Source of the DNA: an uncultured Candidatus Saccharibacteria bacterium
GTDB lineage: Bacteria > Patescibacteriota > Minisyncoccia > Phycocordibacterales > CAIZLB01
Direction: 5' to 3'
Length of the DNA: 42,589 nt
Assembly (NCBI GenBank): GCA_964620475.1
Contig: CAZUJN010000002.1
Span: 33,185 to 75,773 of the forward strand
A program made the translations under genes and the position numbers. Below the pieces are notes generated by a model that saw nothing but the letters and a program-made list of their open reading frames with translations, was not told where the DNA came from and ran no database searches. Positions 5,353 to 42,589 of the stretch are shown here, piece after piece. Position 1 is the first letter of the stretch; every line of letters begins with the position of its first letter.

Positions 5353-5841
5353 ATGAAACTTCAATTCCTCAAGTTGCGTGGAGGTAAATTTGCAATTATT
5401 CCTCCTGACGAAATTCAACAAAATATCGTTCAGAGACGCAGATTTGGATTTTGGCCTCAAACCAAGGTCAAGCAGATTCAAATCAAGTACCACATCCTGG
5501 ATGGACATCTCATTGCGACATTTCACCGAATCGACAAATCAGTCACCTTTTTCAACAGACAGGCGGCTGAAAAATGGTTCGAGAAGAAGCTTGATGTATC
5601 GCCATTGGTCGGTAACAAGATCATCACCTCTGATGCCGAACTTCAAATGACATTCTCTTGCCCTCATTGCGGTACAATCAAGTCGCAAAAACGGCGCAGA
5701 TTCTTCCATGTGCCGGAAAAGGTTCTGGATCATAAGGCCGCCATTCCAGAAACGCAGATTCAAGGTGCGACTTGTAAATGCGGCAAGAATTGTCACCTGG
5801 ATGTTCATCAAATCGGGAACATTCATGTTCGAGTACGTTAA
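5353..5841 (+). CDS. Orphan basic protein with putative zinc ribbon (GC-rich unit 1)
   Basis: ORF lies between a promoter and a terminator. It has CPHC...CKC(xxx)CH and elevated GC with C/G-ending codons. Confidence 0.75.
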   Translation: MKLQFLKLRGGKFAIIPPDEIQQNIVQRRRFGFWPQTKVKQIQIKYHILDGHLIATFHRIDKSVTFFNRQAAEKWFEKKLDVSPLVGNKIITSDAELQMTFSCPHCGTIKSQKRRRFFHVPEKVLDHKAAIPETQIQGATCKCGKNCHLDVHQIGNIHVRVR

Positions 5842-5868
5842 CCCTCTCAACCACCCTCAACCCAAAAC

Positions 5869-5903
5869 GCGCGTATCCTTCACAGGACCGCGCATTTTTA
5901 TTT
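5869..5903 (+). terminator. Intrinsic terminator of unit 1 (probably bidirectional)
   Basis: GCGCG-ta-TCCT-tcac-AGGA-c-CGCGC then ATTTTTATTT. An A4 run precedes it, and the convergent GNAT gene stops at 5911. Confidence 0.75.
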
Positions 5904-5910
5904 ATAAAAT

Positions 5911-6387
5911 CTAATTTACAAAACCACCCCTCAATCTCATATCCATCAACACATGCTCTTGATTACTATAATAATCAGGAAGTATAGCTCTAATCTTAAA
6001 ACCTAACTCTTCATACATAGTTCTTGATTTCCAATGAGTTCCTGTCTCTAATTTTATAACATGACACTCTTTTTTCTTAGCATCTTCTATTATATATTTT
6101 ATAAGATCACAACCTATATCTTCTATATTGTCAGTTTGTTTAAACACTATAGAAACTATAGTTGCCACGCCCATATTTGTTTCTAAGACAGCATAACCTA
6201 TTATTTGATTATTTTTCTCTTCTCTAACAACATAAATAAATCTCTTTTGAGAATACAACCTGGTCACTTCACCAAAATGTTCTGTGTCTACCATATCCCA
6301 TTCAGTAGTTAGAAATTCATTTAATACTTCAGGGTTTTTTTGTAAATCAAATTCTTGTATTGTTACATCTATTAATTCTTTATCCAT
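5911..6387 (-). CDS. GNAT-family N-acetyltransferase (RimI-like)
   Basis: IIGYAVLE, IGCDLIKYIIEDAK, IKLETG..W.SRTMYEELGF and LPDYY match the GNAT fold. Confidence 0.85.
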   Translation of the reverse strand: MDKELIDVTIQEFDLQKNPEVLNEFLTTEWDMVDTEHFGEVTRLYSQKRFIYVVREEKNNQIIGYAVLETNMGVATIVSIVFKQTDNIEDIGCDLIKYIIEDAKKKECHVIKLETGTHWKSRTMYEELGFKIRAILPDYYSNQEHVLMDMRLRGGFVN

Positions 6388-6395
6388 AAAAATAA

Positions 6396-8801
6396 TTATA
6401 TAACAAAACTGATTATTTTACCTGGTATATATATTTCTTTTTTTATAACCTTCCCCTCTATATGATTTTTTACTTGTTTCTTAGCTTCTTCTAAAACTTT
6501 TTTATTATCCCAAGAATCATCTATCTCTAAAACACCACGGAGTTTTCCATTTACCTGTATACCTAATTTAGCCATATCTTTAACTATTTTCTTTTCGTCA
6601 TATTTAGGCCATGAAGATATGTTTATAGATTTTTTATTTCCAAACATTAACCAAATCTCGTCTGATATATGGGGAGCAAATGGTGCTAATATTTGTATGA
6701 AAGTCAGAAAATCTTTTTTATTAATATTTTCATCCAAATTATTCAATAAAATCATAAGTGATGATACAGCTGTATTAAATGCAAAATCATTTATATCATC
6801 TGTAACTTTCTTGATAGTTTTATGAATTTCAGAAACTATCTTTGAATCAGTTTTGATATTTTTATTCTTAATATTATTTTGTTTTACAACTTGAGCTAAA
6901 CGCCAAACCTTATCCAAAAATCTTCTAGTACCTATAAGACCTTCAGTTTGCCAAGGAAGTTGTGAATCAAATGGACCTAAGAACATTTCATACATACGAA
7001 AAGCATCGGCACCATAAGTATCTATACAGTCATCAGGATTAACAACATTACCCCATCTCTTACTCATCTTTTGATTATCTGATCCAAGTATCATACCTTG
7101 ATTTCTCAAAGCCTTAAAAGGTTCTTCTGTTTGAGCTATACCTATATCTTTTAAGAATTTATTCCAAAATCTAGAATATAAAAGATGTCCAGTTGCATGC
7201 TCAAGTCCACCTACATACATATCAACATTTTTCCAAATTTTAACAGCTTTTTCTCCTACAAGCGCTTTCTTATTGTCAACATCCATATATCTTAAATAAT
7301 ACCAAGATGATGCTGCCCATCCCGGCATAGTATTTGTCTCATACCCGGCCTTAACCCAAGATGAAACAGAAGCCAATGGTGATTCACCTGTGCCTGTTGG
7401 TTCATATGAAGATACTTTTGGCAAAGTTAAAGGTAAATCTTTATCAGATAAAGGTGTGATAATTCCGTCTTTATTGTATCTTAAAGGTATAGGTTCACCC
7501 CAATATCTTTGACGTGCAAAAACTGCATCACGCATTTTATACTTTGATATAGCTTTAGCATTCAATCTTTTAGCTACAATCTCGGCATCTTCCAACTTAG
7601 TGTCTTTTATGGCTATGTCATACATAGATGCAAAATCAGCATCTCTATCATCTTTATCTGGCACACCCATCACAGCACCGGTACCATAATCAGATAAAAC
7701 ATAATTGGTAACGTAAACAGGTATTTTGTGTTTATTATCTGGATGTATAGCATGAACATTTTCTAATAATATACCTTTTTTAATCTTTAGATCGGATTCT
7801 GACACTCCCCAAGTTTTTGTCTGCTGTGTTATATGTTTAAAAACATTAGGGTTTTTATTTATTAATTCATGATCTTTTGCTATAGCTAAAAAAGTTACGC
7901 CATGTAAAGTGTCTAATCTAGTGGTATATACCTTTATCCTATCTACTTCACCAACATCTTTATTTAGTGGAAAATCTAATTCATAACCATAACTCTTTCC
8001 TATCCAATTTCTCTGTATAGTCTTTACATGTTCTGACCAATCAAGCTCTTCTAATCCTGAAAGTAATCTATCGGCATAAGCTGTTATACGTAAAAACCAT
8101 TGACGCATCATTTTCTTTTCAACAGGAAAACCACCTCTTTCACTTTTTCCATCTATAACTTCATCATTTGCTAGTACCGTTCCAAGTGTGGGACACCAAT
8201 TTACCTCGGAATGACCTTCATAAGCCAATCTATATTTCATAAGATCGTCTTGTTTTTCTTTATCCGAAAGAGCGGACCAGGCTTTATCTTTTGACTTGAT
8301 AGCTATCAAATCCTCTATGGGTCTAGCTTTCTGTTTTTTCTCATCATAATAATGATTATATAATCTCAAAAATATCCATTGAGTCCATTTATAATAATCT
8401 TCATTTGTGGTGTTTATACGTCTAGACCAATCATATGACAAACCAATTATAGATAATTGTCTTTCAAAAGTTTTAACATTTATATCGACAGCTTTTTTGG
8501 GATGAACTTTATTTTGTATAGCATATTGTTCAGCAGGTAAACCAAAAGCATCATAGCCCATAGGATGTAAAACATTATATCCTTGCATACGCTTTAAGCG
8601 TGCATAAACATCAGAACCAACATATCCTCTAGGGTGACCAACATGAAGACCGGCTCCAGATGGATAAGGAAACATGTCTAAAACGTACATTTTGGGTTTC
8701 TTATTATCATTCTTAGTCTTATATATAGAATCTTTCTCCCATTTCTTCTGCCAGAAAGCATCTATTTTCTTATGATTGTAAAATTGATTGTCTGCTGTCA
8801 T
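6396..8801 (-). CDS. leuS: Leucine--tRNA ligase
   Basis: MFPYPSGAGLHVGH, RQRYWGEP, GGLEHATGHLLYSRFW and KMSKR motifs. Start trimmed to MTADNQFY at 8801. Confidence 0.97.
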   Translation of the reverse strand: MTADNQFYNHKKIDAFWQKKWEKDSIYKTKNDNKKPKMYVLDMFPYPSGAGLHVGHPRGYVGSDVYARLKRMQGYNVLHPMGYDAFGLPAEQYAIQNKVHPKKAVDINVKTFERQLSIIGLSYDWSRRINTTNEDYYKWTQWIFLRLYNHYYDEKKQKARPIEDLIAIKSKDKAWSALSDKEKQDDLMKYRLAYEGHSEVNWCPTLGTVLANDEVIDGKSERGGFPVEKKMMRQWFLRITAYADRLLSGLEELDWSEHVKTIQRNWIGKSYGYELDFPLNKDVGEVDRIKVYTTRLDTLHGVTFLAIAKDHELINKNPNVFKHITQQTKTWGVSESDLKIKKGILLENVHAIHPDNKHKIPVYVTNYVLSDYGTGAVMGVPDKDDRDADFASMYDIAIKDTKLEDAEIVAKRLNAKAISKYKMRDAVFARQRYWGEPIPLRYNKDGIITPLSDKDLPLTLPKVSSYEPTGTGESPLASVSSWVKAGYETNTMPGWAASSWYYLRYMDVDNKKALVGEKAVKIWKNVDMYVGGLEHATGHLLYSRFWNKFLKDIGIAQTEEPFKALRNQGMILGSDNQKMSKRWGNVVNPDDCIDTYGADAFRMYEMFLGPFDSQLPWQTEGLIGTRRFLDKVWRLAQVVKQNNIKNKNIKTDSKIVSEIHKTIKKVTDDINDFAFNTAVSSLMILLNNLDENINKKDFLTFIQILAPFAPHISDEIWLMFGNKKSINISSWPKYDEKKIVKDMAKLGIQVNGKLRGVLEIDDSWDNKKVLEEAKKQVKNHIEGKVIKKEIYIPGKIISFVI

Positions 8802-8841
8802 ATGTTGTAAATATAGCATAAATATGATAGAATTTGCGAAT

Positions 8842-9084
8842 ATGTCATTAAACGTATCAATTAAGAAAAACAACAACGAGTCACCTTCATCTGTGATCAA
8901 AAGATTCACTAAAAAAATGCAAGAGTGGGGTGGTTTAAATAAGGCTCGTAAAAAAAGATATGCAGAAAGAAAACTGTCATATTATAAGGTTAAAAAAGAA
9001 GCTTTGAAAAAAATTAAAAATAACGAAACAAGGCTTGCTGATATAAAAATGGGTAAATACTTTAATACAGCTAATAAAAAATAA
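8842..9084 (+). CDS. rpsU: Ribosomal protein bS21-like
   Basis: VSIKKNNNES.SSVIKRFTKKMQEWG.L..ARKKRY resembles bS21. Promoter TTGTAA-N17-TAGAAT at 8805-8833. Confidence 0.65.
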   Translation: MSLNVSIKKNNNESPSSVIKRFTKKMQEWGGLNKARKKRYAERKLSYYKVKKEALKKIKNNETRLADIKMGKYFNTANKK

Positions 9085-9097
9085 TACTTATAAATAT

Positions 9098-9517
9098 ATG
9101 AAATATATTATAGATACAGATAATCTATCAATCTCCTATAATATCAAGAAAGCACCAAAAATAGATGGTGTTTTTTTGCATAAAATCAAAAAAAATATAC
9201 TCGGTGATAAGTTTGAATTAAATATTTATTTTGTAGGTCAAAAAAAGATACGCGAGATCAACAAGAAATTTAGAAAAAAAGATTATGTGACAGATATATT
9301 GTCATTCCCTTTTTTGGAAGATAATTTTGGTGAAATATATATTTGTTTAGATAAAGTTAAACAAAAATCAAAGTCTTTTGACACTGATTCAGAAAATTAT
9401 CTAAATTATTTATTTGTTCACGGAATGATACATCTTAGAGGGTTAGATCATGGTGATATTATGGATAAATTGGAAAAAAAATACACAAAAAAACTTAACA
9501 TTTTCTATCCTTACTAG
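9098..9517 (+). CDS. ybeY: rRNA maturation endoribonuclease YbeY
   Basis: NKKFRKKDYVTDILSFP, GEIYI and HGMIHLRGLDH (H3xH5xH) motifs. Confidence 0.95.
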   Translation: MKYIIDTDNLSISYNIKKAPKIDGVFLHKIKKNILGDKFELNIYFVGQKKIREINKKFRKKDYVTDILSFPFLEDNFGEIYICLDKVKQKSKSFDTDSENYLNYLFVHGMIHLRGLDHGDIMDKLEKKYTKKLNIFYPY

Positions 9518-9533
9518 TATACTATACGTATAT

Positions 9534-10823
9534 ATGAAGAAAAATGATTCAGATGTAATAGTAATAGAAGTTGCTACCACCGCCCTACGCTTGATTATTA
9601 TTAACAAAGAATCAGGTAAGATTGTTGCTACAAGTAATGTGCCTATAGAATATATAAAAAGAGGCATCATTAAAGATGTTGAAGCTTTAACAAAAAGCAT
9701 AAGAACATTAATATCTCAGACAAATAAAAACTACCTTAATACCATAAAGAAAGTAGTAATTGCACTTTCTGGCTCGGCTATATCAAGCATCTCTTCATCA
9801 GCAGAAGTAAAAATAAACAACAAAAACAAAATAATAGATGGTGAGATAATGGATGAAATATTTCAAAAGCTAGAAAATAAAATACCTGAGAATATATCTC
9901 AAAACAAAAAGATAATACATACAGTTCCGCAAAAATATAAGATAGACGGTAAAACTATAAACACCAGCAAACCGATAGGTTTATCTGGAAACATATTAGA
10001 ACTACAAGCTTTGTGTATATTCACAAATAAACAACATCTAGAAAATGTACTTTTAGCATGTGAGGAAAATAATTTAGATGTGGAGGATGTAATTGTATCA
10101 GAGTATGCATATTCTAAAAATCAGATCTCAGAGGCCGATAGATTAGCCGGTGTATGTATAGTAAATATAGGCGGTGACACCACAACGGTTATAAGTTATG
10201 AAGAAAATGTGCCAATATTACTCGAAGTTATACCTTTAGGCTCTGAAGACATATCTAGAGACATAGCTTTAGGTTTGAAAGTTACATTATCACAAGCAAA
10301 AATGATTAAGATGTATCCAGATACTGAATTAAAAAAATTAGCTTCAGAGTTAACCGAGGTATTTATTACTGGTCAGAAAATGCACATAAGGAGGGATCAA
10401 AGAGAAAAAGCTTTCTTCTTATCTCTACAAGAAAAATATCATGAAATCATATACGCTCGTATTATAGATATATTTGAACTTATACAAAAACACTTAAAGA
10501 AAATTGGCAGAGATAGGTTATTACCTGCCGGTGTTATAATACACGGAGGAGGATCTATGACTAAAGATATAGCTACAATATCCAGAGAGATATTGCATCT
10601 TCCAACACAAATCAGAAGTGAAAATATATGTAATTTAGATTTATGCAAGTTCAAACAAAGTAAAAATATATGCATAGAGTGTGGTGATACTATGAGTATA
10701 TATGCCACAGGTTTATATTATCTAGATCAGGATGAAGATGAGTACTTTAGTAATAAAGGACATAAAGGCTTATCACATACAATGAAAAAAGTTTTGAATT
10801 GGTTAAAACCTTTCTTGCCTTAA
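9534..10823 (+). CDS. ftsA: Cell division protein FtsA (divergent)
   Basis: IIHTVPQKYKIDG..PIGLSG..LE, GVCIVNIGGDTT, IPLGSEDISRDIALGL, IIYARI.DIFELI and LLPAGVIIHGGGS motifs, near ftsZ. Start trimmed to 9534. Confidence 0.88.
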   Translation: MKKNDSDVIVIEVATTALRLIIINKESGKIVATSNVPIEYIKRGIIKDVEALTKSIRTLISQTNKNYLNTIKKVVIALSGSAISSISSSAEVKINNKNKIIDGEIMDEIFQKLENKIPENISQNKKIIHTVPQKYKIDGKTINTSKPIGLSGNILELQALCIFTNKQHLENVLLACEENNLDVEDVIVSEYAYSKNQISEADRLAGVCIVNIGGDTTTVISYEENVPILLEVIPLGSEDISRDIALGLKVTLSQAKMIKMYPDTELKKLASELTEVFITGQKMHIRRDQREKAFFLSLQEKYHEIIYARIIDIFELIQKHLKKIGRDRLLPAGVIIHGGGSMTKDIATISREILHLPTQIRSENICNLDLCKFKQSKNICIECGDTMSIYATGLYYLDQDEDEYFSNKGHKGLSHTMKKVLNWLKPFLP

Positions 10824-10824
10824 A

Positions 10825-11358
10825 CTATTTCAATAATTCATCGGCTAAAGCGAATAGTTCATATGATTGATGTGTTTTAGCTATTTTGACAACATCTTCT
10901 GTGGATAAACTAGAGTCAGATAAATACAATTCATATATTATCTTGATATGGGTCAGATACTCTAATTCTGTATTGGATACATGTTCGATATTTTTAGAGA
11001 TAACATTTATTAATTTATATAATAATAATATAGAAATAATTCTTCTATTTTTAATATCCACCGTCTCAGTTAATTCAAGATTCGGTTGCACATCTCTAGA
11101 TCTAGACCAACTTACATCGAGTAATATATCCTCAAAGTCAGAATAATCTTCTGTATCATGAACATTATCTAATCTAATAACATAATTCATAATTTGATAC
11201 ACAGGATCTGTTAAATTTTTCCCATCAAATAATTTTTTAAAAGTTTTTTTAAAGAAAATTAATAAATAATGAGCTAATTCAGTATTAGACATCGACTCTA
11301 TAGATTCTCTAATAGTTTTAACTTCTGATTTTGAAATTGATTCACTTTCTGAAACCAT
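10825..11358 (-). CDS. Hypothetical AT-rich orphan between ftsA and ftsZ
   Basis: Acidic, helical-looking ORF. TATAAT at 11366-11371 lies 7 nt before ATG 11358. Confidence 0.65.
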   Translation of the reverse strand: MVSESESISKSEVKTIRESIESMSNTELAHYLLIFFKKTFKKLFDGKNLTDPVYQIMNYVIRLDNVHDTEDYSDFEDILLDVSWSRSRDVQPNLELTETVDIKNRRIISILLLYKLINVISKNIEHVSNTELEYLTHIKIIYELYLSDSSLSTEDVVKIAKTHQSYELFALADELLK

Positions 11359-11440
11359 AAATATAATTATACCCTCTTTTTTTATAAAAAACATCAAAAA
11401 AACCCTTAAAATCACAACACATAATCAATTTTGTCTCAAA

Positions 11441-11469
11441 TTGGCAGGCAAAAACTTCCGTGATATAAT
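11441..11469 (+). promoter_or_regulatory. ftsZ promoter (leaderless type)
   Basis: TTGGCA-N17-TATAAT with TGn extension, ATG 8 nt downstream. Confidence 0.75.
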
Positions 11470-11477
11470 CATGAATT

Positions 11478-12677
11478 ATGCCACAAGTAAAAACTGAAAT
11501 ACAAACATTTGCAAGAATTAACGTAGTTGGTGTCGGTGGATCTGGAAAAAACGCTACAAATCACATGATTAACAATAAAGTGAAGGGTGTTGATTTTATA
11601 GCCATAAATACAGACGCTCAGGATCTTAATAATTCCCTAGCCCCTAAGAAAATACACATAGGTAAAAATCTAACTAAAGGTTTAGGTGCTGGTATGAATC
11701 CAGAAGTTGGTAAAAACGCAGCAGAAGAAACAAGAGCTGAAGTACAAGAAGCCTTGAAAAATGCTGATATGGTTTTTGTTGCAGGTGGACTTGGTGGAGG
11801 TACCGGTACAGGAGCTAGTCCTATAGTTGCTCGTATATCAAAAGAGATGGGTGCACTTACTATTGGTGTAGTAACAAAACCTTTCATGTTTGAGGGTCAA
11901 AGACGTATGAGATTGGCAGAAGAAGGATTAGCAGAATTATCAAAATCAGTTGATGCTCTTATAGTTGTACCAAATGACAAATTGATGGGGGCTATATCAA
12001 AAGACACAACAGCTAAAGATGCATTCGCTATGAGTGATGAGGTTCTTAAACAAGCTGTTGAAGGTATATCAGATCTTATAACAACTCCAGGTGCTATTGG
12101 TAACATAGACTTTGCAGATATCAGAGCTGTTCTTGAAAACGCAGGTTCAGCGTTGATGGGTGTAGGTCAAGCTTCAGGTGAAAACAGAGCGGTAGAAGCT
12201 GCTAAAGCTGCTATATCGTCACCTCTTATAGATATATCTATACATGGAGCTAAAGGAGTATTATTCTCTATAGCAGGTAGTGATGATCTTACAATGTTTG
12301 AAATATCAGAAGCAGCTAGAGTTATCACAGAGTCAGTGGACCCAGATGCTAAAATAATATTCGGTACAGTTAAGGATGATAAATTAAAGAAAAATGAAGT
12401 TAGAGTAACAGTTGTTGCGGCCAACTTCCCTGATAAACTTACAGCAGTTAGAAATATATTCCGTGATAGAGAAACTATGGTACAAGACTCTGTATCATCA
12501 CAAGACGATACTAAGCCAGGTAAAATATTTAATTCTATAAATATAAACAAAAAGAAAGAAGAAAAAGAAGAGGTTGAAGAGGAAGATAATTCAAATGTAA
12601 TGAAGCCGGCAGCAGATATTGACGAAGATGATTGGTCAGCAGTTCCAGCATTTCTAAGAAGATCAAAAAATAGATAG
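11478..12677 (+). CDS. ftsZ: Cell division protein FtsZ
   Basis: GVGGSG.NA, GGLGGGTGTG, NIDFAD and the C-terminal VPAFLRR tail. Confidence 0.99.
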   Translation: MPQVKTEIQTFARINVVGVGGSGKNATNHMINNKVKGVDFIAINTDAQDLNNSLAPKKIHIGKNLTKGLGAGMNPEVGKNAAEETRAEVQEALKNADMVFVAGGLGGGTGTGASPIVARISKEMGALTIGVVTKPFMFEGQRRMRLAEEGLAELSKSVDALIVVPNDKLMGAISKDTTAKDAFAMSDEVLKQAVEGISDLITTPGAIGNIDFADIRAVLENAGSALMGVGQASGENRAVEAAKAAISSPLIDISIHGAKGVLFSIAGSDDLTMFEISEAARVITESVDPDAKIIFGTVKDDKLKKNEVRVTVVAANFPDKLTAVRNIFRDRETMVQDSVSSQDDTKPGKIFNSININKKKEEKEEVEEEDNSNVMKPAADIDEDDWSAVPAFLRRSKNR

Positions 12678-12705
12678 TTTATTTACAAATAATCTTAAAA
12701 TATAA

Positions 12706-13617
12706 ATGGAAAATACAAATCAAAAGTATGATTTAGTAATTATAGGCGGCGGCCCTGCTGGATCAGCAGCCGCTGTTTATGCTGCTAGAAAGAAGATAAA
12801 ATCAGCAATAATAACAACTGAATTCGGCGGTCAAAGTGTGGTTTCTGATGATATACAAAATTGGATAGGAACACCCCATATCTCAGGTATGGATTTGGCA
12901 AAATCTCTCGAGACTCATGTTAAAGAGTATCAAGGAGATATTTTACATATTATAAAAGAATTAGTATCTTCTATTACACAAAACGAAAATAAGACATTTA
13001 CTATAAAAACAAATAAAGGTGATATAACAACTCGTTCAATACTTATAGCTACAGGTAGTAAAAGACGTAAACTTGAAGCTAAAGGTGCGGATGAATTTGA
13101 ACATAAAGGTGTGACATATTGTGCATCTTGTGACGGTCCCATGTATAGAGATACAGCTGTAGCTGTTATAGGCGGCGGTAATGCTGCCTTTGAATCAGCT
13201 CTTCAGTTAGCTGCTTATTGTACAAAAGTTTATATATTAAACAGAAGTGAATCATATAGAGCTGATGAGATAACTGTTGATAAAGCTAAAAGTAAATCGA
13301 ATATAGAAATAATAAATAATGCGGTTGTTACAGAAGTGTTTGGTGAACAATTTGTAAAAGGTTTAACTTATAATAATGATAATAAACTTGATGTTGAAGG
13401 TATATTTGTTGAAATAGGACAAATACCAAATACTGATTATATAAATATAGTTGAGAAAAATAATACTGGTAATATAATAGTTGATCCAAGAACACAAAGA
13501 ACTTCTATTGAAGGTATATGGGCAGCCGGTGATTGTACAGATGGTTTATATCATCAAAATAACATCGCTGTTGGCGATGCTGTTAAGGCTTTGGAGAATA
13601 TATATGTGTGGTTGTAA
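12706..13617 (+). CDS. trxB: Thioredoxin-disulfide reductase family (TrxB/AhpF-C-like)
   Basis: IIGGGPAG, ATGS, redox motif CASCDG, VIGGGNAA and GIWAAGDC. Confidence 0.9.
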   Translation: MENTNQKYDLVIIGGGPAGSAAAVYAARKKIKSAIITTEFGGQSVVSDDIQNWIGTPHISGMDLAKSLETHVKEYQGDILHIIKELVSSITQNENKTFTIKTNKGDITTRSILIATGSKRRKLEAKGADEFEHKGVTYCASCDGPMYRDTAVAVIGGGNAAFESALQLAAYCTKVYILNRSESYRADEITVDKAKSKSNIEIINNAVVTEVFGEQFVKGLTYNNDNKLDVEGIFVEIGQIPNTDYINIVEKNNTGNIIVDPRTQRTSIEGIWAAGDCTDGLYHQNNIAVGDAVKALENIYVWL

Positions 13618-13638
13618 AAATTTATTTATTACATCAGT

Positions 13639-14604: not shown

Positions 14605-14628
14605 AATTTTATTTTATCATTTTTTATT

Positions 14629-15965: not shown

Positions 15966-17084
15966 ATGACAAAAATTCTATACTGTATAACTAAGGGTAA
16001 TTTTGGTGGGGCCCAGAGATATGTTTATGATTTGGCGACAAATTTAGACAAAAATCAATACAATATAACGGTACTTTGTGGCGAAGGTGACACTTTACCA
16101 AATAAACTTCAAGAAAAAGATATAAAAGTTATTAGACTAAATGTTTTAAAACGTGACATAAGTATAGTAAATGAATTTAAATCTTTTATAGAGATATATA
16201 AAATTTTCAAAAAAGAGAAACCAGATATAATACACTTGAATAGTTCTAAGATGGGCGGTATAGGTGCATTTATCGGAAGAATAGTCGGCATTAAAAATAT
16301 TATATTTACAGCTCATGGTTTTGCATTCAATGAAAAAAGACCTTTGTGGCAGAAATTAATATTAATATTCTTTCATCATTTAACAATATTACTTACACAT
16401 AAAACCATAATGGTTTCCGAAAAAACAAAAAGAGATATAGATTATTTACCATTTATAAAAAATAAATTAATAAAAATTTATAATGGTATTGACACACATC
16501 TTGACTTTTATGACAAAGAAAAATCCAAAGAAATTTTAAAAGAAAAAAATATAAATTTTAATAATAAAAAAATATTATTATCTATAGGAGAATTACATAA
16601 GAATAAGGGCTATGATATATTTATCCCCCATCTTAAAGAAATTAAAAAAGATTTTTTATATATAATAATCGGCAATGGAGAAGAAAAAGAAAATCTTGAT
16701 AAAATAATTAAAGAAAATAATTTGACGGAAAAAGTTTATTTACTTGGAAGAGTTGAAGAAGCTTATAAGTATATAAAGATGTCTGATATATTTATATTAC
16801 CTTCCAGAACTGAGGCGTTCCCTTATGTATTACTTGAATCTGGTTTAGCATCTAGTGTTATATTGGCTTCGAGAGTTGGTGGTATACCTGAGATAATATT
16901 AGAAAATGAAACTGGTTTACTATTTGATTTATACGACAAAGAAAATGTTGTAAGCAAAATAGAGCAATTGTTATCTGATGAAAATATAAGATATAGACTT
17001 TCAAATAATATACATAGAAAAGTTGTTGAAGAGTTTTCTATAGAAAAAATGCTGGAACAAACTTTGAGCGTTTACAGTAAATAG
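15966..17084 (+). CDS. Glycosyltransferase family 4
   Basis: ITKGNFGGAQRYV, IIHLNSSK, IFTAHG, GELHKNKG and EAFPYVLLES...SRVGGIPE. Confidence 0.93.
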   Translation: MTKILYCITKGNFGGAQRYVYDLATNLDKNQYNITVLCGEGDTLPNKLQEKDIKVIRLNVLKRDISIVNEFKSFIEIYKIFKKEKPDIIHLNSSKMGGIGAFIGRIVGIKNIIFTAHGFAFNEKRPLWQKLILIFFHHLTILLTHKTIMVSEKTKRDIDYLPFIKNKLIKIYNGIDTHLDFYDKEKSKEILKEKNINFNNKKILLSIGELHKNKGYDIFIPHLKEIKKDFLYIIIGNGEEKENLDKIIKENNLTEKVYLLGRVEEAYKYIKMSDIFILPSRTEAFPYVLLESGLASSVILASRVGGIPEIILENETGLLFDLYDKENVVSKIEQLLSDENIRYRLSNNIHRKVVEEFSIEKMLEQTLSVYSK

Positions 17085-17099
17085 AGTTCATGGTATTTT
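17071..17099 (+). promoter_or_regulatory. Promoter of unit 2
   Basis: TTTACA(17071-17076)-N17-TATTTT(17094-17099) with TGn. The -35 lies in the last codons of the GT4 gene. Confidence 0.55.
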
Positions 17100-17127: not shown

Positions 17128-17532
17128 ATGAAATTTAAGATCCAACTAATCCGTCTTGCTGTCGAAAACTGGAAGATGTTTTCCTTTCTTTCGATTACAA
17201 TGTCTATAATCTCAGCATCCAAAAAACTACCATGCAATAACTTTCCTATAATCTGCATGTTTGGAATTATGGTGACTATATTATCCAGCCGACTACTGAT
17301 TCACATGTCAGACTATGTCTACAACACAGCTGCAAGAAGACAGCTGAGCGATTCAGAGCATAATATAAATAGAACCAAGACTGTGGCAATATGCTCTTGT
17401 TTAGGGTCTGCATTCATCCTTTTCTTCTCGTCACTTTCAGCTGGTCACCCATTGACTAATCTTGGTCAAGGAACGAATATTCAAGGTCAGCCGGTATCAA
17501 CCTTCCGGTTAATTAACCGGATATTCGAATAA
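17128..17532 (+). CDS. Orphan membrane protein (unit 2, moderately GC-elevated)
   Basis: 134 aa with 2-3 hydrophobic segments, C/G-ending codons, followed by a terminator. Confidence 0.65.
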   Translation: MKFKIQLIRLAVENWKMFSFLSITMSIISASKKLPCNNFPIICMFGIMVTILSSRLLIHMSDYVYNTAARRQLSDSEHNINRTKTVAICSCLGSAFILFFSSLSAGHPLTNLGQGTNIQGQPVSTFRLINRIFE

Positions 17533-17533
17533 C

Positions 17534-17565
17534 AAAAACTCGGGTCCAATCCCCGAGTCTTTTTT
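17534..17565. terminator. Bidirectional intrinsic terminator (unit 2 / efp)
   Basis: A5-ACTCGGG-tccaatc-CCCGAGT-c-T6. The efp stop abuts it at 17564. Confidence 0.8.
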
Positions 17566-18139
17566 ATTTACTAACTCTTTCTACATACTCACCTGTTTCT
17601 GTATTTATTCTAACCACATCTCCCGGCTCTATAAACATCGGTGCAAGTATTGTTGCTCCAGTAGCAAGGGTGATAAGTTTGTTACCACCTTTAGCAGTAT
17701 CACCTCTAACAGCCGGCGGAGCTTCTGTAACCTCAAGTTCAACTTTTATTGGTAATCTAACACCTATAGGTGTCTCACCAAAATATTTTACATCTATAAG
17801 ATCATTTGCTAATAAATATTTTGTTGCATCACCCAACAATACTTCTGATAATTTAAATCTATTCCCTGCATTCTTTTCATCACAGAACCACCACTCACCT
17901 TTATTATTATATAAATATTTAACTTTTTTAGTTTCTATTTCAGCCTCTTCTGCTTTATCTGTAGCCTGAAAAGAAACTTCTATAGTACGTCCTGAAAGAA
18001 GATTTCTCATCTTGACTGCGTTAACAGGTTTACGCATCTGCTTTCTAAAAACATGTGAGTCCAAGATCTCATAAGGCTCACCATCATCATATATAATTAC
18101 TTTTCTAATAACGATTTCGTTGTATTCTAACATTGACAT
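17564..18139 (-). CDS. efp: Elongation factor P (non-canonical tip loop)
   Basis: KMRNLLSG, YLYN..GEWWF and the C-terminal EAPPAVRGDTA.GGNKLITLATGA.ILAPMFIEPGD.VRINTETGEYVER. Confidence 0.95.
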   Translation of the reverse strand: MSMLEYNEIVIRKVIIYDDGEPYEILDSHVFRKQMRKPVNAVKMRNLLSGRTIEVSFQATDKAEEAEIETKKVKYLYNNKGEWWFCDEKNAGNRFKLSEVLLGDATKYLLANDLIDVKYFGETPIGVRLPIKVELEVTEAPPAVRGDTAKGGNKLITLATGATILAPMFIEPGDVVRINTETGEYVERVSK

Positions 18140-22261: not shown

Positions 22262-22328
22262 ATAAAAAAAAGACCGTCTCCTTGGGTAAGGATCCGGTCT
22301 GGGTTGGCGACGGTGGTTAAGTCCGTCG
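22262..22328 (-). terminator. Double hairpin/terminator of unit 3
   Basis: Minus strand: CGACGG-N9-CCGTCG, then AGACCG-ga-TCCTT-accc-AAGGA-ga-CGGTCT and T8. Confidence 0.8.
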
Positions 22329-23057
22329 TTAGTGATGATGTTCGCGGGCAGGCATACGCCTCGTCTTGGTCTTACCGCCAGAAGACAGGTCACCCTGTTT
22401 TTGACGACGGAAAAAAGTCGTGATGCGTCCGCTGATTTCACCAGAGACTTCATCAACAGACCTCATGCCGTCAATCTCGTAGATCTTGACTCCGAGTTGT
22501 TTGATGACGGAAAGAGTACGTCGACGCTTGGTCGCCCAAGCGTGCCAACGAGCCTTAACCGTCTCAGGATCGAAATCATCAAGGCGCCCTTCGATTTTCG
22601 CACGGTATTCGGCTCTGTAGAGTGCTTCTTCAAGCGTGATACCGATATCGAATCCCATAGCGCGACCTGGTTGTGCGATGAAACTGTTCAGCTCCCTGCC
22701 TTGATCATAATCCCGCGGGATACCATCAAGACAAACCGTCGAACCTGGAAAAATCTCAGTCTCGCTGACAAATTCACGGACAAGACCCATGACCACAGGG
22801 TGCGGTAGATATCCGCCGCGAGCCATGGTCGGACCATGAGTCTGGGCGAAGTGTTCATCATCCTCGCACTTGAGACGTGCTTGAGTTCCCGTGCTCAAAT
22901 GAACGTTAGCATGCCGTTTGGCTTGAGTACCCTTTCCAGAGAGAGGGTGGCCCAAAAACAAGACAACATTGATATCCATTCCCGGACGATTAAGAATATG
23001 CGATCTAGACATGATACAGTGGGTGTTGGTTTGAATGTGTGCATGCACCAGCTCCAT
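22329..23057 (-). CDS. Divergent adenylate/NMP kinase-family protein (GC-rich unit 3)
   Basis: LFLGHPLSGKGTQA P-loop, HLSTG, LDGIPR..DQ, R...GRLDD...V..R (short LID) and EIDG.RSVDEV. About 50-57% GC in sampled lines. Confidence 0.82.
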   Translation of the reverse strand: MELVHAHIQTNTHCIMSRSHILNRPGMDINVVLFLGHPLSGKGTQAKRHANVHLSTGTQARLKCEDDEHFAQTHGPTMARGGYLPHPVVMGLVREFVSETEIFPGSTVCLDGIPRDYDQGRELNSFIAQPGRAMGFDIGITLEEALYRAEYRAKIEGRLDDFDPETVKARWHAWATKRRRTLSVIKQLGVKIYEIDGMRSVDEVSGEISGRITTFFRRQKQGDLSSGGKTKTRRMPAREHHH

Positions 23058-23075: not shown

Positions 23076-23104
23076 ATCATACATAAAAAAACACCTTACG
23101 TCAA
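23076..23104 (-). promoter_or_regulatory. Promoter of unit 3
   Basis: TTGACG(23104-23099)-N17-TATGAT(23081-23076), just after the uvrB stop. Confidence 0.8.
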
Positions 23105-32357: not shown

Positions 32358-32378
32358 ACAAAAAACCACACTTTGTTG

Positions 32379-32387
32379 TGTGGATAA
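32379..32387 (-). promoter_or_regulatory. Perfect DnaA box
   Basis: TTATCCACA on the minus strand, upstream of the mraZ promoter. Confidence 0.65.
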
Positions 32388-32389: not shown

Positions 32390-32425
32390 AAAAAGGGTCC
32401 GACGCTGTGTTATGGCGTCGGACCC
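32390..32425 (-). terminator. Terminator of unit 4
   Basis: Perfect 11-bp stem GGGTCCGACGC-cataacaca-GCGTCGGACCC plus T5. Confidence 0.85.
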
Positions 32426-32454
32426 AGTGAAAACGCGGGTGAGGCGTAAGGGTT

Positions 32455-32889
32455 TCAGGATTCTTCGTCTTCCTCAATCCGCTTTGCGGCAATGATCATG
32501 ACATGATGACCCGTAATTGCCATATTCGGACTGAATCTGACTTTTTTCCAAGTCTTCCGTTCGCGGTCCCACAAGAGACAGTTCCTTCGATCGTCGCGAT
32601 GCCTGAGCGGAATCGCGAGGTCAAATTTCATCTCAACCGGATCCGGCAGATTGATGACAGAGTCTTCGATATGAATCGAATCAATCACACCCGTGGGTGC
32701 AAAAGTGTAATTCTCATCGATGACGTCTGACATCATGGCACAGATGTCAACCGGTTTCGTCCTGTCAATCGGTAAGACCACGCCAAGAAGAGTGGCTTTA
32801 TCGAATTCACCGAGCGGTACAACCACCCAGTCCGTCGTCGTTGTTGCTTCAGCAATCATAGTGTCCCAATGTATTAGTGTTTTGTTCAC
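32455..32889 (-). CDS. Orphan protein (GC-rich unit 4)
   Basis: About 55% GC in a sampled line, between a promoter and a terminator. Start is GTG 32889 or ATG 32859. Confidence 0.72.
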   Translation of the reverse strand: MNKTLIHWDTMIAEATTTTDWVVVPLGEFDKATLLGVVLPIDRTKPVDICAMMSDVIDENYTFAPTGVIDSIHIEDSVINLPDPVEMKFDLAIPLRHRDDRRNCLLWDRERKTWKKVRFSPNMAITGHHVMIIAAKRIEEDEES

Positions 32890-32947
32890 ACCAAGAGCTC
32901 TCGACCGGTCCCAAGATCGGAGGGGTGTTCAGGGTGCAACGTATTTA

Positions 32948-32976
32948 TTTATACCACATTAAACCTCATGACTCAA
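32948..32976 (-). promoter_or_regulatory. Promoter of unit 4
   Basis: TTGAGT(32976-32971)-N17-TATAAA(32953-32948) with TGn. The -35 lies inside the last murG codons. Confidence 0.7.
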
Positions 32977-41119: not shown

Positions 41120-41965
41120 TTATTTAAGTTCAGGCATTGGTATATTAGCACTTGAACATAGCAATAGATTCGCCTGTCTTTGTGTAGTCTTGTAGAAGTA
41201 TCCTGTTGATTTTGTTAAACCCCATGGTTTTAATACAGAATCAGTATATTTTTCTTGAAATGTTTTAACAGCTTTTTCTGTTAAATCACCAAAAAATCCT
41301 GTTGTTTTAATATTTAATAATTTTTGTAGTTTTTTAACTTCATTAATATCATTTTTCTTACCTTTTTTCATGTAAGTTTTAAACATATCAGCACAGTTTG
41401 GTTCTGTAGTTGTAGCTGTTGAAGTAGCTGAGATAACTGAACCTGATGTTATAGATGATATAGGTGAACCTGATGATATACCACCACCTATTGTTGAGCC
41501 ACTACCAAATGATGGACCAGAGAATGTAGACACCACTGGAGTTGATGTAGCTTCTGTTGAAGTAGATGTTGTCACAAGAAAAGTAACACAATCTGGATCA
41601 GCTAAACCTGTAAGTGTATCACCGTCAGCATCTGTACCAGCTGTACATGAAGTTAAAGTTTCTGAAGTTATTACTGGAATTACAAATGATGAACAATCTG
41701 GATCAGCAACGCCAACCAATGTATCACCATCAGCATCTGTACCAGCTGTACATGATTCTGATGTCTCTGGAGTAACAATAACAGTTAAAAATGAGGCACA
41801 ATCAGGATCTGATATACCTGTAAGTGTATCACCATCAGCATCTGTGCCAGCTGAACATGAAGTTGCATCTTCAACTGAAGGCAATGAAATAGCGAAAGTT
41901 TTTATTGATAATATACTTGAAAATGCTAAAAGCATTACAATTGATAATAATATTAATTTTTTCAT
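41120..41965 (-). CDS. Secreted surface protein: Cys/Asp repeats, Ser/Thr linker, peptidoglycan-binding domain
   Basis: Signal peptide MKKLILLSIVMLLAF, three C.AGTDADGDTL.G..DPDC repeats, and a C-terminal EVKKLQ..L...TGFFG.LT..AVK.FQ (PG_binding_1-like). Confidence 0.8.
   Translation of the reverse strand: MKKLILLSIVMLLAFSSILSIKTFAISLPSVEDATSCSAGTDADGDTLTGISDPDCASFLTVIVTPETSESCTAGTDADGDTLVGVADPDCSSFVIPVITSETLTSCTAGTDADGDTLTGLADPDCVTFLVTTSTSTEATSTPVVSTFSGPSFGSGSTIGGGISSGSPISSITSGSVISATSTATTTEPNCADMFKTYMKKGKKNDINEVKKLQKLLNIKTTGFFGDLTEKAVKTFQEKYTDSVLKPWGLTKSTGYFYKTTQRQANLLLCSSANIPMPELK
41589..41862. repeat. Three coding tandem repeats with 105-nt period
   Basis: CAATC(T/A)GGATC starts at 41589, 41694 and 41799, and each unit contains GTATCACC(A/G)TCAGCATCTGT. 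Confidence 0.9.
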
Positions 41966-41973
41966 AGGAAATA

Positions 41974-42002
41974 ATGATACCATTTATAGTTTTTTATGTC
42001 AA
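41974..42002 (-). promoter_or_regulatory. Promoter of the surface-protein gene
   Basis: TTGACA(42002-41997)-N17-TATCAT(41979-41974) with TGn, ATG 41965 8 nt downstream. Confidence 0.8.
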
Positions 42003-42004
42003 AT

Positions 42005-42057
42005 AAAAAGGCATCCTGCTGTTTGATGGCAGGATGCCGATTAGCCGAAAAGTCGGC
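42005..42057 (-). terminator. Double hairpin/terminator of unit 5
   Basis: Minus strand GCCGA-cttt-TCGGC, then the perfect stem GGCATCCTGC-catcaaaca-GCAGGATGCC plus T5. Confidence 0.85.
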
Positions 42058-42071
42058 AAAGCTGTGAATGT

Positions 42072-42589
42072 TCACGTTGGAGGCGGCGAGAATGATCCCG
42101 TAGCGATACGGAAGAATTTCCGCGGAGTTCCAGGATCATATACGAAGCTGATGGTTACCCCATTGCCGTTATCAACGATGGTAGCTTCCGGTGGGGTTAC
42201 CCCCGACCAAATAAGCAAATCAGTTGACTTCTCAATCCCCCAAAGAAGACCAAAGTCCCCGGGCAAAATGCCGGTGACCGGGAATGAAATCTTCCCATCA
42301 GCGATGACCGGGTTCCCTGTCACCGGGTTGATGACTGCTGTCACCCTCGACGAAGTCGAGATGGTGAAAGGGGTAACGATACCGTTGATGGTCGCATTGC
42401 CGGAAATCGAGCGTGAAAGCTCGTAATAATCTCCGGGTTTGGACATCTTCGGAAATGACCCGCCGAGAGTCACCTTGTGTTCGGTGATCCAAAGCGACGT
42501 TGGTGAGACAATAGCCGTGCCGACCAAACTACCCGACGGTGAAGTCGGCGAAGCAAAGATTGACGGAATACTGGTGTCTGACTCCGGAT
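42072..42589 (-). CDS. C-terminal part of a GC-rich, probably secreted beta-rich protein (unit 5, runs off the window end)
   Basis: The frame stays open upstream of the TTG at 42527 to the window edge (..PESDTSIPSIFASPTSPSGSLVGT..). It ends WGIEKSTDLLIWS...RKFFRI. About 60% GC in a sampled line. Confidence 0.75.
   Translation of the reverse strand, partial: PESDTSIPSIFASPTSPSGSLVGTAIVSPTSLWITEHKVTLGGSFPKMSKPGDYYELSRSISGNATINGIVTPFTISTSSRVTAVINPVTGNPVIADGKISFPVTGILPGDFGLLWGIEKSTDLLIWSGVTPPEATIVDNGNGVTISFVYDPGTPRKFFRIATGSFSPPPT

What the first reader, a model, noticed from the sequence alone, without database searches (positions are those of the whole stretch)
5353..42589. Family of dispersed GC-rich single-gene 'promoter-ORF-hairpin' units inserted between core genes
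Five units (5353-5903, 17128-17565, 22262-23057, 32390-32940, 42005-end) break sharply from the AT-rich background. Hand-counted 60-nt lines give 28, 26, 34, 33 and 37 G+C, versus 17-20 in sampled core-gene lines. Each holds one unrelated ORF (zinc-ribbon orphan, membrane orphan, divergent NMP kinase, orphan, secreted protein). The four complete units follow a 17-bp-spaced sigma70 promoter, and all five end in a GC-rich hairpin plus U-tract. Two split conserved neighbourhoods (uvrB|uvrA, murG|mraZ). No integrase, transposase, terminal inverted repeat or target duplication is visible. A regular architecture with unrelated cargo suggests a recurring gene-acquisition route distinct from integrons and IS elements. 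That interpretation is inference.
Basis: partly seen in the sequence, partly recalled or inferred. Interest (0 to 1): 0.85.

Follow-up and report, generated by a model that had tools for sequence, protein, structure and literature searches.

The report
GC-rich single-gene islets in Parcubacteria
Five GC-rich single genes lie between housekeeping operons of an AT-rich Parcubacteria genome; they are real, but they are old, fast-evolving accessory genes that keep their positions and are swapped between strains by ordinary recombination, not a new kind of mobile element.

Summary
Five of about 45 genes in this 31.6% GC window are strong GC3 outliers (0.41-0.60 against a median of 0.20). Each is a single ORF with a promoter conserved in relatives and a hairpin plus T-tract. 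Independent assemblies span the junctions, so they are not chimeras.

The units share no repeats, target duplications or boundary motif, and the window encodes no recombinase. Relatives carry a gene at the same sites. Units 1, 2, 3 and 5 have clear but fast-diverging homologues there. At the unit 4 site relatives carry ORFs of similar size with no detectable homology. uvrB and uvrA abut only in distant Parcubacteria.

Turnover looks like homologous recombination limited to the coding sequence:
- Unit 2 is a 38%-identical allele between flanks that are 97-99% identical.
- The unit 3 CDS has dS 0.06 beside a uvrB with dS 0.86.

Best reading: old, horizontally acquired, moron-like genomic islets that recombine often.

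One point is unexplained. GC-richness persists in positional orthologues despite saturated synonymous divergence, and unit 1 shows no drift towards AT.

No function is assigned except unit 3, a divergent short adenylate-kinase-like NMP kinase.

The parts
5315..5343 (+). u1 promoter-like site, TTGACT-17-TATTAT
   Evidence: 10 of 12 matches. L176 has the same TTGACT...TGTATGAT arrangement.
5353..5841 (+). u1 ORF, 162 aa: beta-rich protein with a four-cysteine zinc ribbon. GC 0.44, GC3 0.46.
   Evidence: Only 8 relatives among 1.84 billion representative proteins. Invariant C103, C106, C141, C143. AF2 pLDDT 81 with no PDB fold match. Positional orthologues in L003, L170 and L176.
5868..5903 (.). 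Bidirectional hairpin terminator between u1 and the convergent GNAT-LeuRS operon
   Evidence: -12.4 on the + strand, -15.9 on the - strand. Conserved in L003, where the blastn alignment resumes at 5853.
17071..17099 (+). u2 promoter-like site, TTTACA-17-TATTTT with TG upstream; overlaps the GT4 3' end
   Evidence: Read. The region is identical in L004 and L006, and its core ATGGTATTTT is kept in L003.
17128..17532 (+). u2 ORF, 134 aa: small hydrophobic, probably membrane, protein (judged by eye). GC 0.39, GC3 0.41. Hypervariable allele.
   Evidence: It is 37-38% identical to the 140-aa alleles of L004/L007 and L003, between flanks 97-99% identical.
17538..17568 (.). Bidirectional hairpin terminator shared by u2 and the convergent efp
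   Evidence: Stem conserved in all alleles.
23076..23104 (-). u3 promoter-like site, TTGACG-17-TATGAT
   Evidence: 10 of 12 matches. Invariant in L001/L002 although the uvrB 3' end is about 85% identical.
22329..22979 (-). u3 ORF, 216 aa from the conserved start: divergent short-type adenylate-kinase-like NMP kinase. GC 0.50, GC3 0.48. About 90 nt of GC-rich 5' UTR lies upstream (22980-23068).
   Evidence: Pfam ADK 8.4e-13. NCBIfam Adk equivalog models hit, all below cut-off. Nearest non-self relatives are Peribacteraceae kinases at 30-36% identity. Conserved GKGTQA, DGIPRD and RAKIEGRLDD motifs.
22264..22300 (-). u3 GC-rich hairpin plus T8
   Evidence: -15.0. The L001 version differs by compensatory stem changes.
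32948..32976 (-). u4 promoter-like site, TTGAGT-17-TATAAA with TG upstream; the -35 element lies inside the murG 3' end
   Evidence: Read. The TGGTATA -10 core is invariant in the window, L089, L090 and L091.
32455..32859 (-). u4 ORF, 134 aa: orphan with an acidic C-terminus. GC 0.48, GC3 0.54.
   Evidence: only one 99%-identical cluster among 5.8 billion proteins. No Pfam, PHROG, PADLOC or NCBIfam hit better than E 0.02.
32390..32425 (-). u4 terminator: 11-bp GC-rich stem plus T5
   Evidence: -21.9 kcal/mol.
32360..32383 (-). Resident AT-richer hairpin plus T6 just downstream of the u4 terminator and upstream of the mraZ promoter
   Evidence: Conserved with L090, which has a different GC-rich terminator of its own upstream.
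42072..42589 (-). u5 ORF, C-terminal 172 codons of a 277-aa secreted orphan; runs off the window. GC 0.53.
   Evidence: P0122 96%, P0123 80%; signal-peptide-like N-terminus MRTIIALIVALTCTVSAQ, judged by eye. dN/dS 0.14. Complete unit seen in L171/L172.
42005..42038 (-). u5 terminator: 10-bp GC-rich stem plus T5
   Evidence: -18.1. The L172 version keeps its pairing through wobble changes.

Best explanation
The five segments are lineage-restricted accessory genes of a Parcubacteria/Paceibacteria population from wastewater and freshwater. They fit the description of genomic islets that look like phage morons. Each is a monocistronic unit: an AT-rich promoter, a GC-rich 5' UTR, one ORF, a C-rich spacer and an intrinsic terminator. 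Each lies at a boundary between housekeeping operons, and the terminator would shield the next core operon from read-through.

They entered these junctions by horizontal transfer long ago. This step is inferred from their composition and from the empty uvrB|uvrA junction in distant relatives. Since then they have kept their positions while the proteins diverged 5-10 times faster than flanking genes.

Shown: present-day turnover is homologous recombination with tracts close to the coding sequence. u2 exists as deeply divergent alleles between near-identical flanks. A nearly identical u3 CDS is shared by lineages whose flanks differ by about 15%.

Inferred: no dedicated mobility machinery is involved. 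The five share only what any independently expressed foreign gene would share.

Inferred, less certain: GC-richness persists because these coding sequences pass between lineages of differing GC content more often than their flanks do, or because GC is maintained in place.

Functions:
- u3 is an auxiliary short NMP (adenylate-like) kinase.
- u2 (membrane) and u5 (secreted, next to a fibre-like Peptidase_S74 protein) are probably cell-surface components under diversifying selection.
- u1 (zinc ribbon) and u4 have no assignable function.
For: - Composition outliers.
- Architecture and conservation of promoters and hairpins. L008, L010 and L054 carry a GC-rich hairpin after the ADK-like ORF, and L008 also shows a promoter-like site upstream.
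- Real junctions: independent Logan, ENA and NCBI contigs span them.
- Protein-coding: Pfam ADK; dN/dS 0.26 for u3 and 0.14 for u5; ORFs and motifs kept across alleles.
- Positional conservation:
  - u1 in L003 and L176, at 41-65% aa identity.
  - u2 in L003, L004, L006 and L007.
  - u3 in L001/L002 (96%), L008 (31%), L010 and L054, grouping together in an NJ tree.
  - u5 in L171-L175.
- Ancestral empty site: uvrB-uvrA gaps of 31-146 nt in L028, L030, L065 and L071-73.
- Recombination:
  - u2 CDS about 50% nt identical between identical promoter and terminator, with flank dS 0.01-0.05. Allele B is seen independently in run X7.
  - u3 CDS dS 0.06 against 0.86 in the adjacent uvrB, with the high-identity tract at about 23035-22335.
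  - dS along L003 varies from 0.27 to 1.2.
- No mobility signature: and Pfam.
Against: - u4 has no detectable homology to the ORFs at the same site in L089, L090 and L091 (blastp E 0.14-2.1; hhalign E 0.11). Each lineage also has its own GC-rich terminator between a conserved -10 element and, in the window and L090 (the only relative whose contig reaches that far), a conserved resident hairpin. That pattern would also fit true cassette replacement.
- A single old acquisition followed by neutral drift towards AT does not fit. GC3 stays 0.19-0.33 above background in positional orthologues despite saturated dS. Polarised changes in u1 are balanced, 24 GC>AT to 19 AT>GC at third positions where 75% GC>AT is expected (P about 0.004).
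- No donor was found for any unit.
- The ADK tree rests on very long branches, so long-branch attraction is possible.
- There is no usable transcript evidence. The one metatranscriptome was too shallow.
- Only 42.6 kb of the genome was seen.
Confidence: 0.6

Rival explanations
1. A recurring, dedicated acquisition route. Promoterless GC-rich cassettes, made of 5' UTR, ORF and own terminator, are repeatedly placed downstream of resident promoters at operon boundaries. This would be a chromosomal counterpart of phage morons or a dispersed integron-like system.
For: - The GC-rich stretch starts after the AT-rich, conserved -10 element and ends with a unit-specific hairpin.
- At the site 3' of murG, four relatives carry ORFs of 134-166 aa of which only L089 and L091 are clearly homologous. 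The window and L090 each have their own GC-rich terminator, and L089 has a GC-rich hairpin-like stretch at its contig end.
- The uvrB|uvrA gap holds different genes in different lineages.
- L176 has extra genes beside u1.
- C-rich spacers precede the hairpin in u1, u3, u4 and the L008 unit.
Against: - No shared sequence at any boundary, and no direct or inverted repeats.
- No recombinase in 42.6 kb.
- u1, u2, u3 and u5 have homologues at the same site in relatives.
- All near-identical strains examined carry the same u4.
- The extra genes in L176 are AT-rich, so these junctions accept genes of any composition.
- No relatives in IMG/VR or GenBank phages.
Confidence: 0.15
2. The GC-richness is produced or maintained in place and is not a mark of foreign origin. 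These loci recombine often, and GC-biased gene conversion, or selection on GC at synonymous sites, holds their GC3 well above the genome's AT-biased equilibrium.
For: - Direct evidence of recombination at u2 and u3.
- GC3 excess persists in orthologues across saturated divergence.
- No AT-ward drift in u1.
- No donor found for four of the five.
Against: - Evidence for GC-biased conversion in bacteria is weak and inconsistent. [quoted passage not shown]
- Heteroduplex-based conversion cannot act between alleles about 50% identical.
- The L091 ORF at the u4 site has background GC (0.32), and the L003 u2 allele is only 0.34.
- The polarised counts rely on parsimony at near-saturated sites, and the AT-rich control gene shows the method's bias.
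Confidence: 0.15
3. Artefact: chimeric assembly or contaminating GC-rich reads joined into an AT-rich contig.
For: Sharp compositional boundaries.
Against: The same junctions appear in contigs assembled independently from different runs, studies and pipelines: L005, L006, L088, L170 and L171 at 98.9-99.97% identity, and L001/L002 at 90%. Contigs of X2, X3, X6, X7 and X10 span u4 and u5. Relatives have orthologous GC-rich genes at the same sites.
Confidence: 0.01
4. The GC-rich segments are structured non-coding RNA genes, as is common for GC peaks in AT-rich genomes, and the ORFs are incidental.
For: GC-rich sequence gives long ORFs by chance. The RNase P RNA in this window is also a GC bump.
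Against: - No Rfam hit in any unit, even at E 0.1.
- ORFs and amino-acid motifs are kept where the DNA is about 50% diverged.
- Pfam ADK hit; dN/dS well below 1.
- The folding z-scores (-2.7 to -4.9) are largely accounted for by the terminator hairpins.
Confidence: 0.01

Closest known systems
Phage morons (HK97/HK022; reviewed in 'The moron comes of age', PMC3594210)
   Same: A single extra gene lies between conserved neighbours. Its GC content differs from the surroundings, and it has its own promoter and terminator so that it is expressed independently (definition read).
   Different: These lie in a bacterial chromosome among housekeeping genes (uvrAB, dcw cluster, efp, leuS), not in a phage or prophage. 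No phage genes are nearby and no phage homologues were found. They are not variably present among the close relatives sampled, but conserved in position.
Genomic islets: small horizontally acquired single-gene insertions without mobility genes (own knowledge)
   Same: Compositional outliers of 0.4-0.9 kb at operon boundaries, with no integrase, tRNA or repeats, restricted to one lineage, with orphan or divergent cargo.
   Different: The outliers are GC-rich in an AT-rich host, and the anomaly has not decayed over divergence at which synonymous sites are saturated. Density is high: 5 in 42.6 kb of otherwise core genes.
Replacement-type flexible genomic islands and hypervariable loci kept by allele exchange, such as O-antigen/capsule loci and fliC (own knowledge). 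Cell-surface genes are recombination-hot in PMC4866539.
   Same: For u2, the same locus in near-identical strains carries alleles too divergent to align, bounded by conserved flanks. The exchange is homologous recombination, and the product is probably in the envelope.
   Different: The locus is a single small gene rather than a multigene cluster. Only u2 shows the classic pattern. u3 shows the inverse: a conserved CDS between diverged flanks.
Integron gene cassettes
   Same: A promoterless-looking ORF plus a 3' hairpin-forming element lies downstream of a resident promoter, and the cargoes are unrelated.
   Different: There are no attC features, no intI/attI platform and no tandem array. The hairpins are followed by T-tracts, as in intrinsic terminators.

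Membership tests
Phage moron | Autonomous transcription unit with its own promoter and terminator | tested here: met
   Promoter-like sites with 17-nt spacing upstream of all five, conserved in relatives. Hairpin plus T-tract downstream of all five, with compensatory changes in u3 and u5. This is sequence evidence only; there are no transcript data.
Phage moron | [quoted passage not shown] | tested here: met
   GC3 0.41-0.60 against a median of 0.20.
Phage moron | Located in a phage or prophage genome, as an addition absent from related phages | tested here: not met
   All neighbours are cellular housekeeping genes. No homologues in IMG/VR or GenBank phages. The sampled relatives that share these junctions (down to about 68% UvrA identity for u3) carry a gene at the same sites.
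Integron cassette | attC recombination site (imperfect inverted repeat with conserved R/L boxes and a GTTRRRY core) at the 3' end | tested here: not met
   The five 3' elements share no sequence and are GC stems followed by T-tracts.
Integron cassette | IntI integrase with attI/Pc platform; cassettes in tandem | tested here: not met
   No integrase domain in any window gene. The units are dispersed 5-12 kb apart. The rest of the genome was not available.
Integrase-mediated genomic island / IS / MITE | tRNA-adjacent insertion, flanking direct repeats or terminal inverted repeats, integrase or transposase | tested here: not met
   No tRNA or tmRNA. Apart from one 3x105-nt tandem repeat inside the PG-binding gene, only low-complexity AT-rich chance repeats, and none at the unit boundaries. 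No such proteins.
Replacement-type hypervariable locus | Conspecific strains carry deeply divergent alleles at one locus between near-identical flanks | tested here: met
   Met for u2 only: 37-38% aa identity between flanks 97-99% identical, with breakpoints at the start codon and the terminator. Not seen for u4 in the strains sampled.
Diversity-generating retroelement target | Template/variable repeat pair differing at adenines, with a nearby reverse transcriptase | tested here: not met
   No such repeat pair in the window and no reverse transcriptase. The u2 alleles differ along the whole CDS.
Adenylate kinase (u3 only) | ADK/NMP-kinase fold with P-loop and conserved NMP-binding and catalytic arginine motifs | tested here: met
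   Pfam PF00406 at 49.1 bits against a cut-off of 26.8. GHPLSGKGTQA, DGIPRD and RAKIEGRLDD align with short-type ADKs.
Adenylate kinase (u3 only) | Equivalog-level match, meaning the same function as housekeeping Adk | tested here: not met
   The best NCBIfam Adk model scores 76 bits against a cut-off of 187, and identity to any sampled kinase is at most 36%. Whether the genome also has a canonical adk could not be tested.

The most novel reading that the evidence does not exclude
These single-gene loci may belong to a gene pool shared between Parcubacteria lineages, with its own compositional equilibrium of about 45-50% GC. In this reading coding sequences are repeatedly exchanged or replaced, tract by tract, inside fixed promoter/terminator 'slots' at operon boundaries, so they never drift towards the host's AT-rich composition. 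Alternatively, recombination-linked GC-biased conversion keeps them GC-rich. Either would make them a distinct, persistent compartment of reduced CPR (candidate phyla radiation) genomes rather than decaying transfer scars.
Probability: 0.2. Interest if true: 0.65.

Novelty: new member of a known kind. Interest (0 to 1): 0.38.

Why it matters
CPR/Parcubacteria genomes are small, syntenic and thought to be gene-poor in accessory functions. Here about a tenth of the genes in a core region are autonomous, fast-evolving, compositionally foreign genes, and at least two of them are exchanged between strains. That marks candidate loci for interaction with hosts or phages in organisms that cannot be cultured.

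The finding also gives a concrete case in which the usual reasoning, that atypical GC means recent transfer, fails: the positions are old but the composition has not decayed. If that persistence proves general, it bears on how composition-based detection of gene transfer and amelioration clocks are used in metagenome-assembled genomes.

The claim of a new mobile-element class is not supported.

Tried and rejected
- **Structured RNA genes.** Rfam at gathering and at E 0.1 found only RNase P elsewhere, and no tRNA. The fold z-scores are explained by the terminators. Rejected.
- **Chimeric assembly.** Rejected by independent contigs.
- **Phage or defence origin.** PHROGs gave only E 0.02-0.06 hits and PADLOC none. 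Four IMG/VR scans and three phage tblastn searches found nothing. A weak Pam3_gp32 / phrog_5888 hit to u4 (E 0.02-0.05) is not usable.
- **Integron, IS or DGR signatures.** None.
- **Homology of u4 to the ORFs at the same site in relatives.** Not significant by blastp or hhalign, so this stays open.
- **Structure-based function.** The u1 model is confident, but the best Foldseek PDB hit has E 0.2 and TM below 0.3. The u5 model is unusable, pLDDT 38.
- **Expression.** The only metatranscriptome holding this organism (X19) has a few 150-220-nt contigs on core genes and none on u4 or u5, which is too shallow to interpret.
- **Literature.** Two full-text searches found no description of GC-rich islets in Parcubacteria.

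Full report
**1. What is in the sequence**

The window is 31.6% GC.

Per-gene statistics make the contrast clear. Median GC3 of about 45 genes is 0.20 with a MAD of 0.032. The five units have GC3 0.41-0.60, robust z 6.7-12.7, and nothing else exceeds z 3.5. Conserved proteins such as MreB and FtsZ have raised GC1 and GC2 but ordinary GC3. The islands are therefore a nucleotide-level anomaly, not an amino-acid effect.

Pfam confirms the flanking genes:
- YqeY | u1 | GNAT-LeuRS
- GT4 | u2 | EF-P
- UvrA | u3 | UvrB
- MraZ | u4 | MurG
- PG-binding protein | u5

The remaining window genes that match a Pfam family are all housekeeping (MreB, MscL, MurJ, YbeY, FtsA, FtsZ, TrpRS, PBP, RsmH, FtsW, MraY, ScpAB and others). 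There is no integrase, transposase or reverse transcriptase and no tRNA.

**2. Anatomy of the units**

Each island holds one ORF:

| Unit | Size | What it is | Source |
|---|---|---|---|
| u1 | 162 aa | Four-cysteine zinc-ribbon protein | |
| u2 | 134 aa | Small hydrophobic, probably membrane, protein (judged by eye) | |
| u3 | 216 aa | ADK-like; Pfam ADK 8.4e-13 | |
| u4 | 134 aa | Orphan | |
| u5 | 277 aa | Secreted orphan; only the C-terminal 172 codons lie in the window | |

The u3 start needs correcting. The upstream ATG of the 251-aa ORF is ACG in L001/L002, so the conserved start gives 216 aa.

A custom hairpin-plus-T-tract scan places the strongest intergenic terminators of the window at u4 (-21.9), u5 (-18.1) and u3 (-15.0 kcal/mol). 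The u1 and u2 hairpins are bidirectional and also serve the convergent GNAT and EF-P genes.

Consensus promoter matches are no more frequent than in shuffled sequence, so the scan alone proves nothing. Phylogenetic footprints do support the promoters:
- The u2 promoter region is identical in L004 and L006, and its core is kept in L003.
- The TGGTATA -10 core of u4 is invariant in four lineages.
- TTGACG...TATGAT of u3 is invariant in L001/L002, where uvrB is about 85% identical.
- TTGACA-17-TAATAT of u5 is identical in L171 and L172.

The GC-rich stretch coincides with the transcribed part. The promoters are AT-rich.

**3. Not artefacts and not RNA genes**

Contigs assembled independently from several runs and pipelines reproduce every junction.

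Rfam finds nothing in the units even at E 0.1. ORFs and motifs persist where the DNA is about 50% diverged. dN/dS is 0.26 for u3 and 0.14 for u5. The excess folding energy is largely the terminators.

**4. Relatives**

The organism belongs to Parcubacteria/Paceibacteria, judging from the record titles of the nearest loci, and occurs in wastewater, activated sludge and freshwater metagenomes.

*u1.* GC-rich orthologues lie between yqeY and GNAT in two lineages:
- L176: 65% aa identity, GC3 0.39 against a background of 0.14-0.18.
- L003: 41-43% aa identity, GC3 0.53.

 L176 also has two extra AT-rich genes at that junction.

*u2.* Every relative that has EF-P next door carries a homologous 134-140-aa gene.

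*u3.* L001/L002 carry it at 96% aa identity. L008 (UvrA 90% aa), L010 and L054 (UvrA 68-69%) each carry a GC-rich ADK-like gene in the uvrB|uvrA gap. These genes are 0.47-0.50 GC against flanks of 0.36-0.39, and each is followed by a GC-rich hairpin; L008 also shows a promoter-like site upstream. In an NJ tree these site-resident kinases group together, in the order expected from UvrA similarity, though on long branches.

*Other lineages at uvrB|uvrA.* In more distant Parcubacteria uvrB and uvrA abut, with gaps of 31-146 nt. Others carry an HPF-like, response-regulator-like or MurB-like ORF (named by eye from the sequence) or another small ORF in the gap.

*u4.* Only a 99%-identical cluster exists among 5.8 billion proteins. 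Relatives with 79-84% MurG identity each have one ORF of 149-166 aa after the same -10 element. L089 and L091 are homologous to each other (E 3e-16). The window's u4 is not detectably related to any of them. The window and L090 share the resident hairpin and the mraZ promoter, but each has its own GC-rich terminator.

*u5.* It is present at 96% and 80% aa identity in two relatives at the same site. The gene upstream ends in a Peptidase_S74 domain.

**5. How they turn over**

*Window against L004.* The sequence is identical up to the u2 start codon and again from the terminator onwards. The CDS between is about 50% identical at the nucleotide level and 37-38% at the protein level. Flank dS is 0.01-0.05 while the CDS is saturated. 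Run X7 confirms the second allele independently. This is allele replacement by recombination.

*Window against L001.* The pattern is the inverse. The u3 CDS and part of its 5' UTR (about 23035-22335) are about 98% identical, dS 0.06. The adjacent uvrB has dS 0.86. The 3' UTR and terminator have diverged, with compensatory stem changes. This indicates a recent homologous import of the coding sequence between lineages about 15% apart.

*Core genes.* dS along L003 ranges from 0.27 to 1.2, so the core genome is a recombination mosaic as well.

Nothing at any boundary suggests site-specific or transpositional insertion.

**6. Interpretation**

The units fit the descriptive definition of morons: different GC, own promoter and own terminator (PMC3594210). 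They fail the defining context, because they are not in a phage and not variably present among close relatives.

They are best filed as old, horizontally acquired genomic islets that remain autonomous and evolve fast. Nonsynonymous divergence (dN) is 0.6 for u1 against 0.07-0.08 in its flanks. They are exchanged by homologous recombination, and u2 behaves as a replacement-type hypervariable locus. The proposal of a dedicated, recurring acquisition route is not supported. The u4 site keeps it from being excluded.

**7. The unexplained part**

If each unit were a single old acquisition drifting towards the host's composition, its GC3 should by now be near 0.2. UvrA dS between the window and L008 is about 2.4 and LeuRS/GNAT dS to L003 is 1.0-1.2. 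A two-state model with equilibrium GC3 0.2 predicts loss of most of the excess over that distance.

Instead, the excess is 0.19-0.33 in the positional orthologues of u1 and u3. Polarised changes in u1 are balanced: 24 GC>AT against 19 AT>GC at third positions, where 75% GC>AT is expected (P about 0.004).

These counts use parsimony at near-saturated sites, and the AT-rich control gene shows a method bias, so this is suggestive rather than proof. Two explanations remain open:
- The coding sequences are replaced repeatedly from a GC-richer pool shared between lineages.
- GC is maintained in place, by selection or by biased conversion, for which bacterial evidence is weak (PMC4866539).

**8. Function**

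u3 keeps the P-loop and the catalytic arginine motifs of short-type adenylate kinases. It scores far below the equivalog cut-offs, and its nearest sampled relatives are Peribacteraceae (Peregrinibacteria) kinases at 30-36% identity. It is probably an auxiliary NMP kinase.

u1 gives a confident AF2 model (pLDDT 81) with no PDB fold match. u5 could not be modelled. PADLOC, PHROGs, IMG/VR and GenBank phages gave nothing for the units tested.

**9. Verdict**

The new-mobile-element reading is not supported. Interest is moderate, because of the persistent GC anomaly and the recombination limited to coding sequences in a CPR genome.

Noticed in passing
window 3892-4266 (+): A bacterial class A RNase P RNA scores 91.1 bits, just under Rfam's gathering score of 100 (E 2e-28, full-length model match). 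It lies in the 460-nt gap between murJ and an orphan gene and is followed by a hairpin terminator at 4273-4299. The default Rfam run missed it.
   Followed up: yes
window 41588-41902 (within gene 41120-41983, - strand): Three tandem copies of a 105-nt (35-aa) repeat, 72-74% identical to the first copy, lie inside the secreted PG-binding protein gene next to u5. This explains that gene's local GC bump and its high GC2.
   Followed up: no
L172 1-666 and L171 1-216 (just beyond the window's right end): The gene upstream of u5 ends in a Peptidase_S74 (endosialidase chaperone) domain (E 4e-17) followed by a Thr-rich tail. This is typical of phage tail fibres and large fibre-like surface proteins. 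u5 may belong functionally with it.
   Followed up: partly
window 14629-17084 versus L003 4990-5055: The sugar-transferase and GT4 glycosyltransferase genes between trpS and u2 are absent from the related genome L003 but present in L004. This is a 2.4-kb AT-rich indel of envelope glycosylation genes beside the hypervariable u2.
   Followed up: partly
L176 1388-2490: A relative has two extra AT-rich genes (124 and 233 aa, rich in charged residues, no Pfam hit on record) between the u1 orthologue and GNAT. The same junction therefore also accepts genes of host-like composition.
   Followed up: partly
L003 versus window 5853-21990: Synonymous divergence between the two genomes varies about fourfold along 16 kb: efp/acyltransferase/trpS 0.27-0.33, ftsZ 0.70, leuS/GNAT 1.0-1.2. 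This indicates a recombination mosaic in core genes too.
   Followed up: partly
window 5842-5867, 22301-22328, 32426-32454; L008 9887-9935: The spacers between stop codon and terminator hairpin in u1, u3, u4 and the L008 unit are C-rich and G-poor (for example CCCTCTCAACCACCCTCAACCC). No explanation was tested.
   Followed up: no
P0126: A 1146-aa protein in the representative library matches the u1 query in ten stretches, the best covering u1 residues 63-115, so this region of u1 also occurs as a repeat module.
   Followed up: no
L089 1400-1450, L091 2805-2845, window 32895-32925 (-): A hairpin followed by a T-tract lies between the conserved -10 element and the start codon of the ORF downstream of murG in L089 and L091, with a weaker version in the window. 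It could be the murG terminator or a leader attenuator.
   Followed up: no
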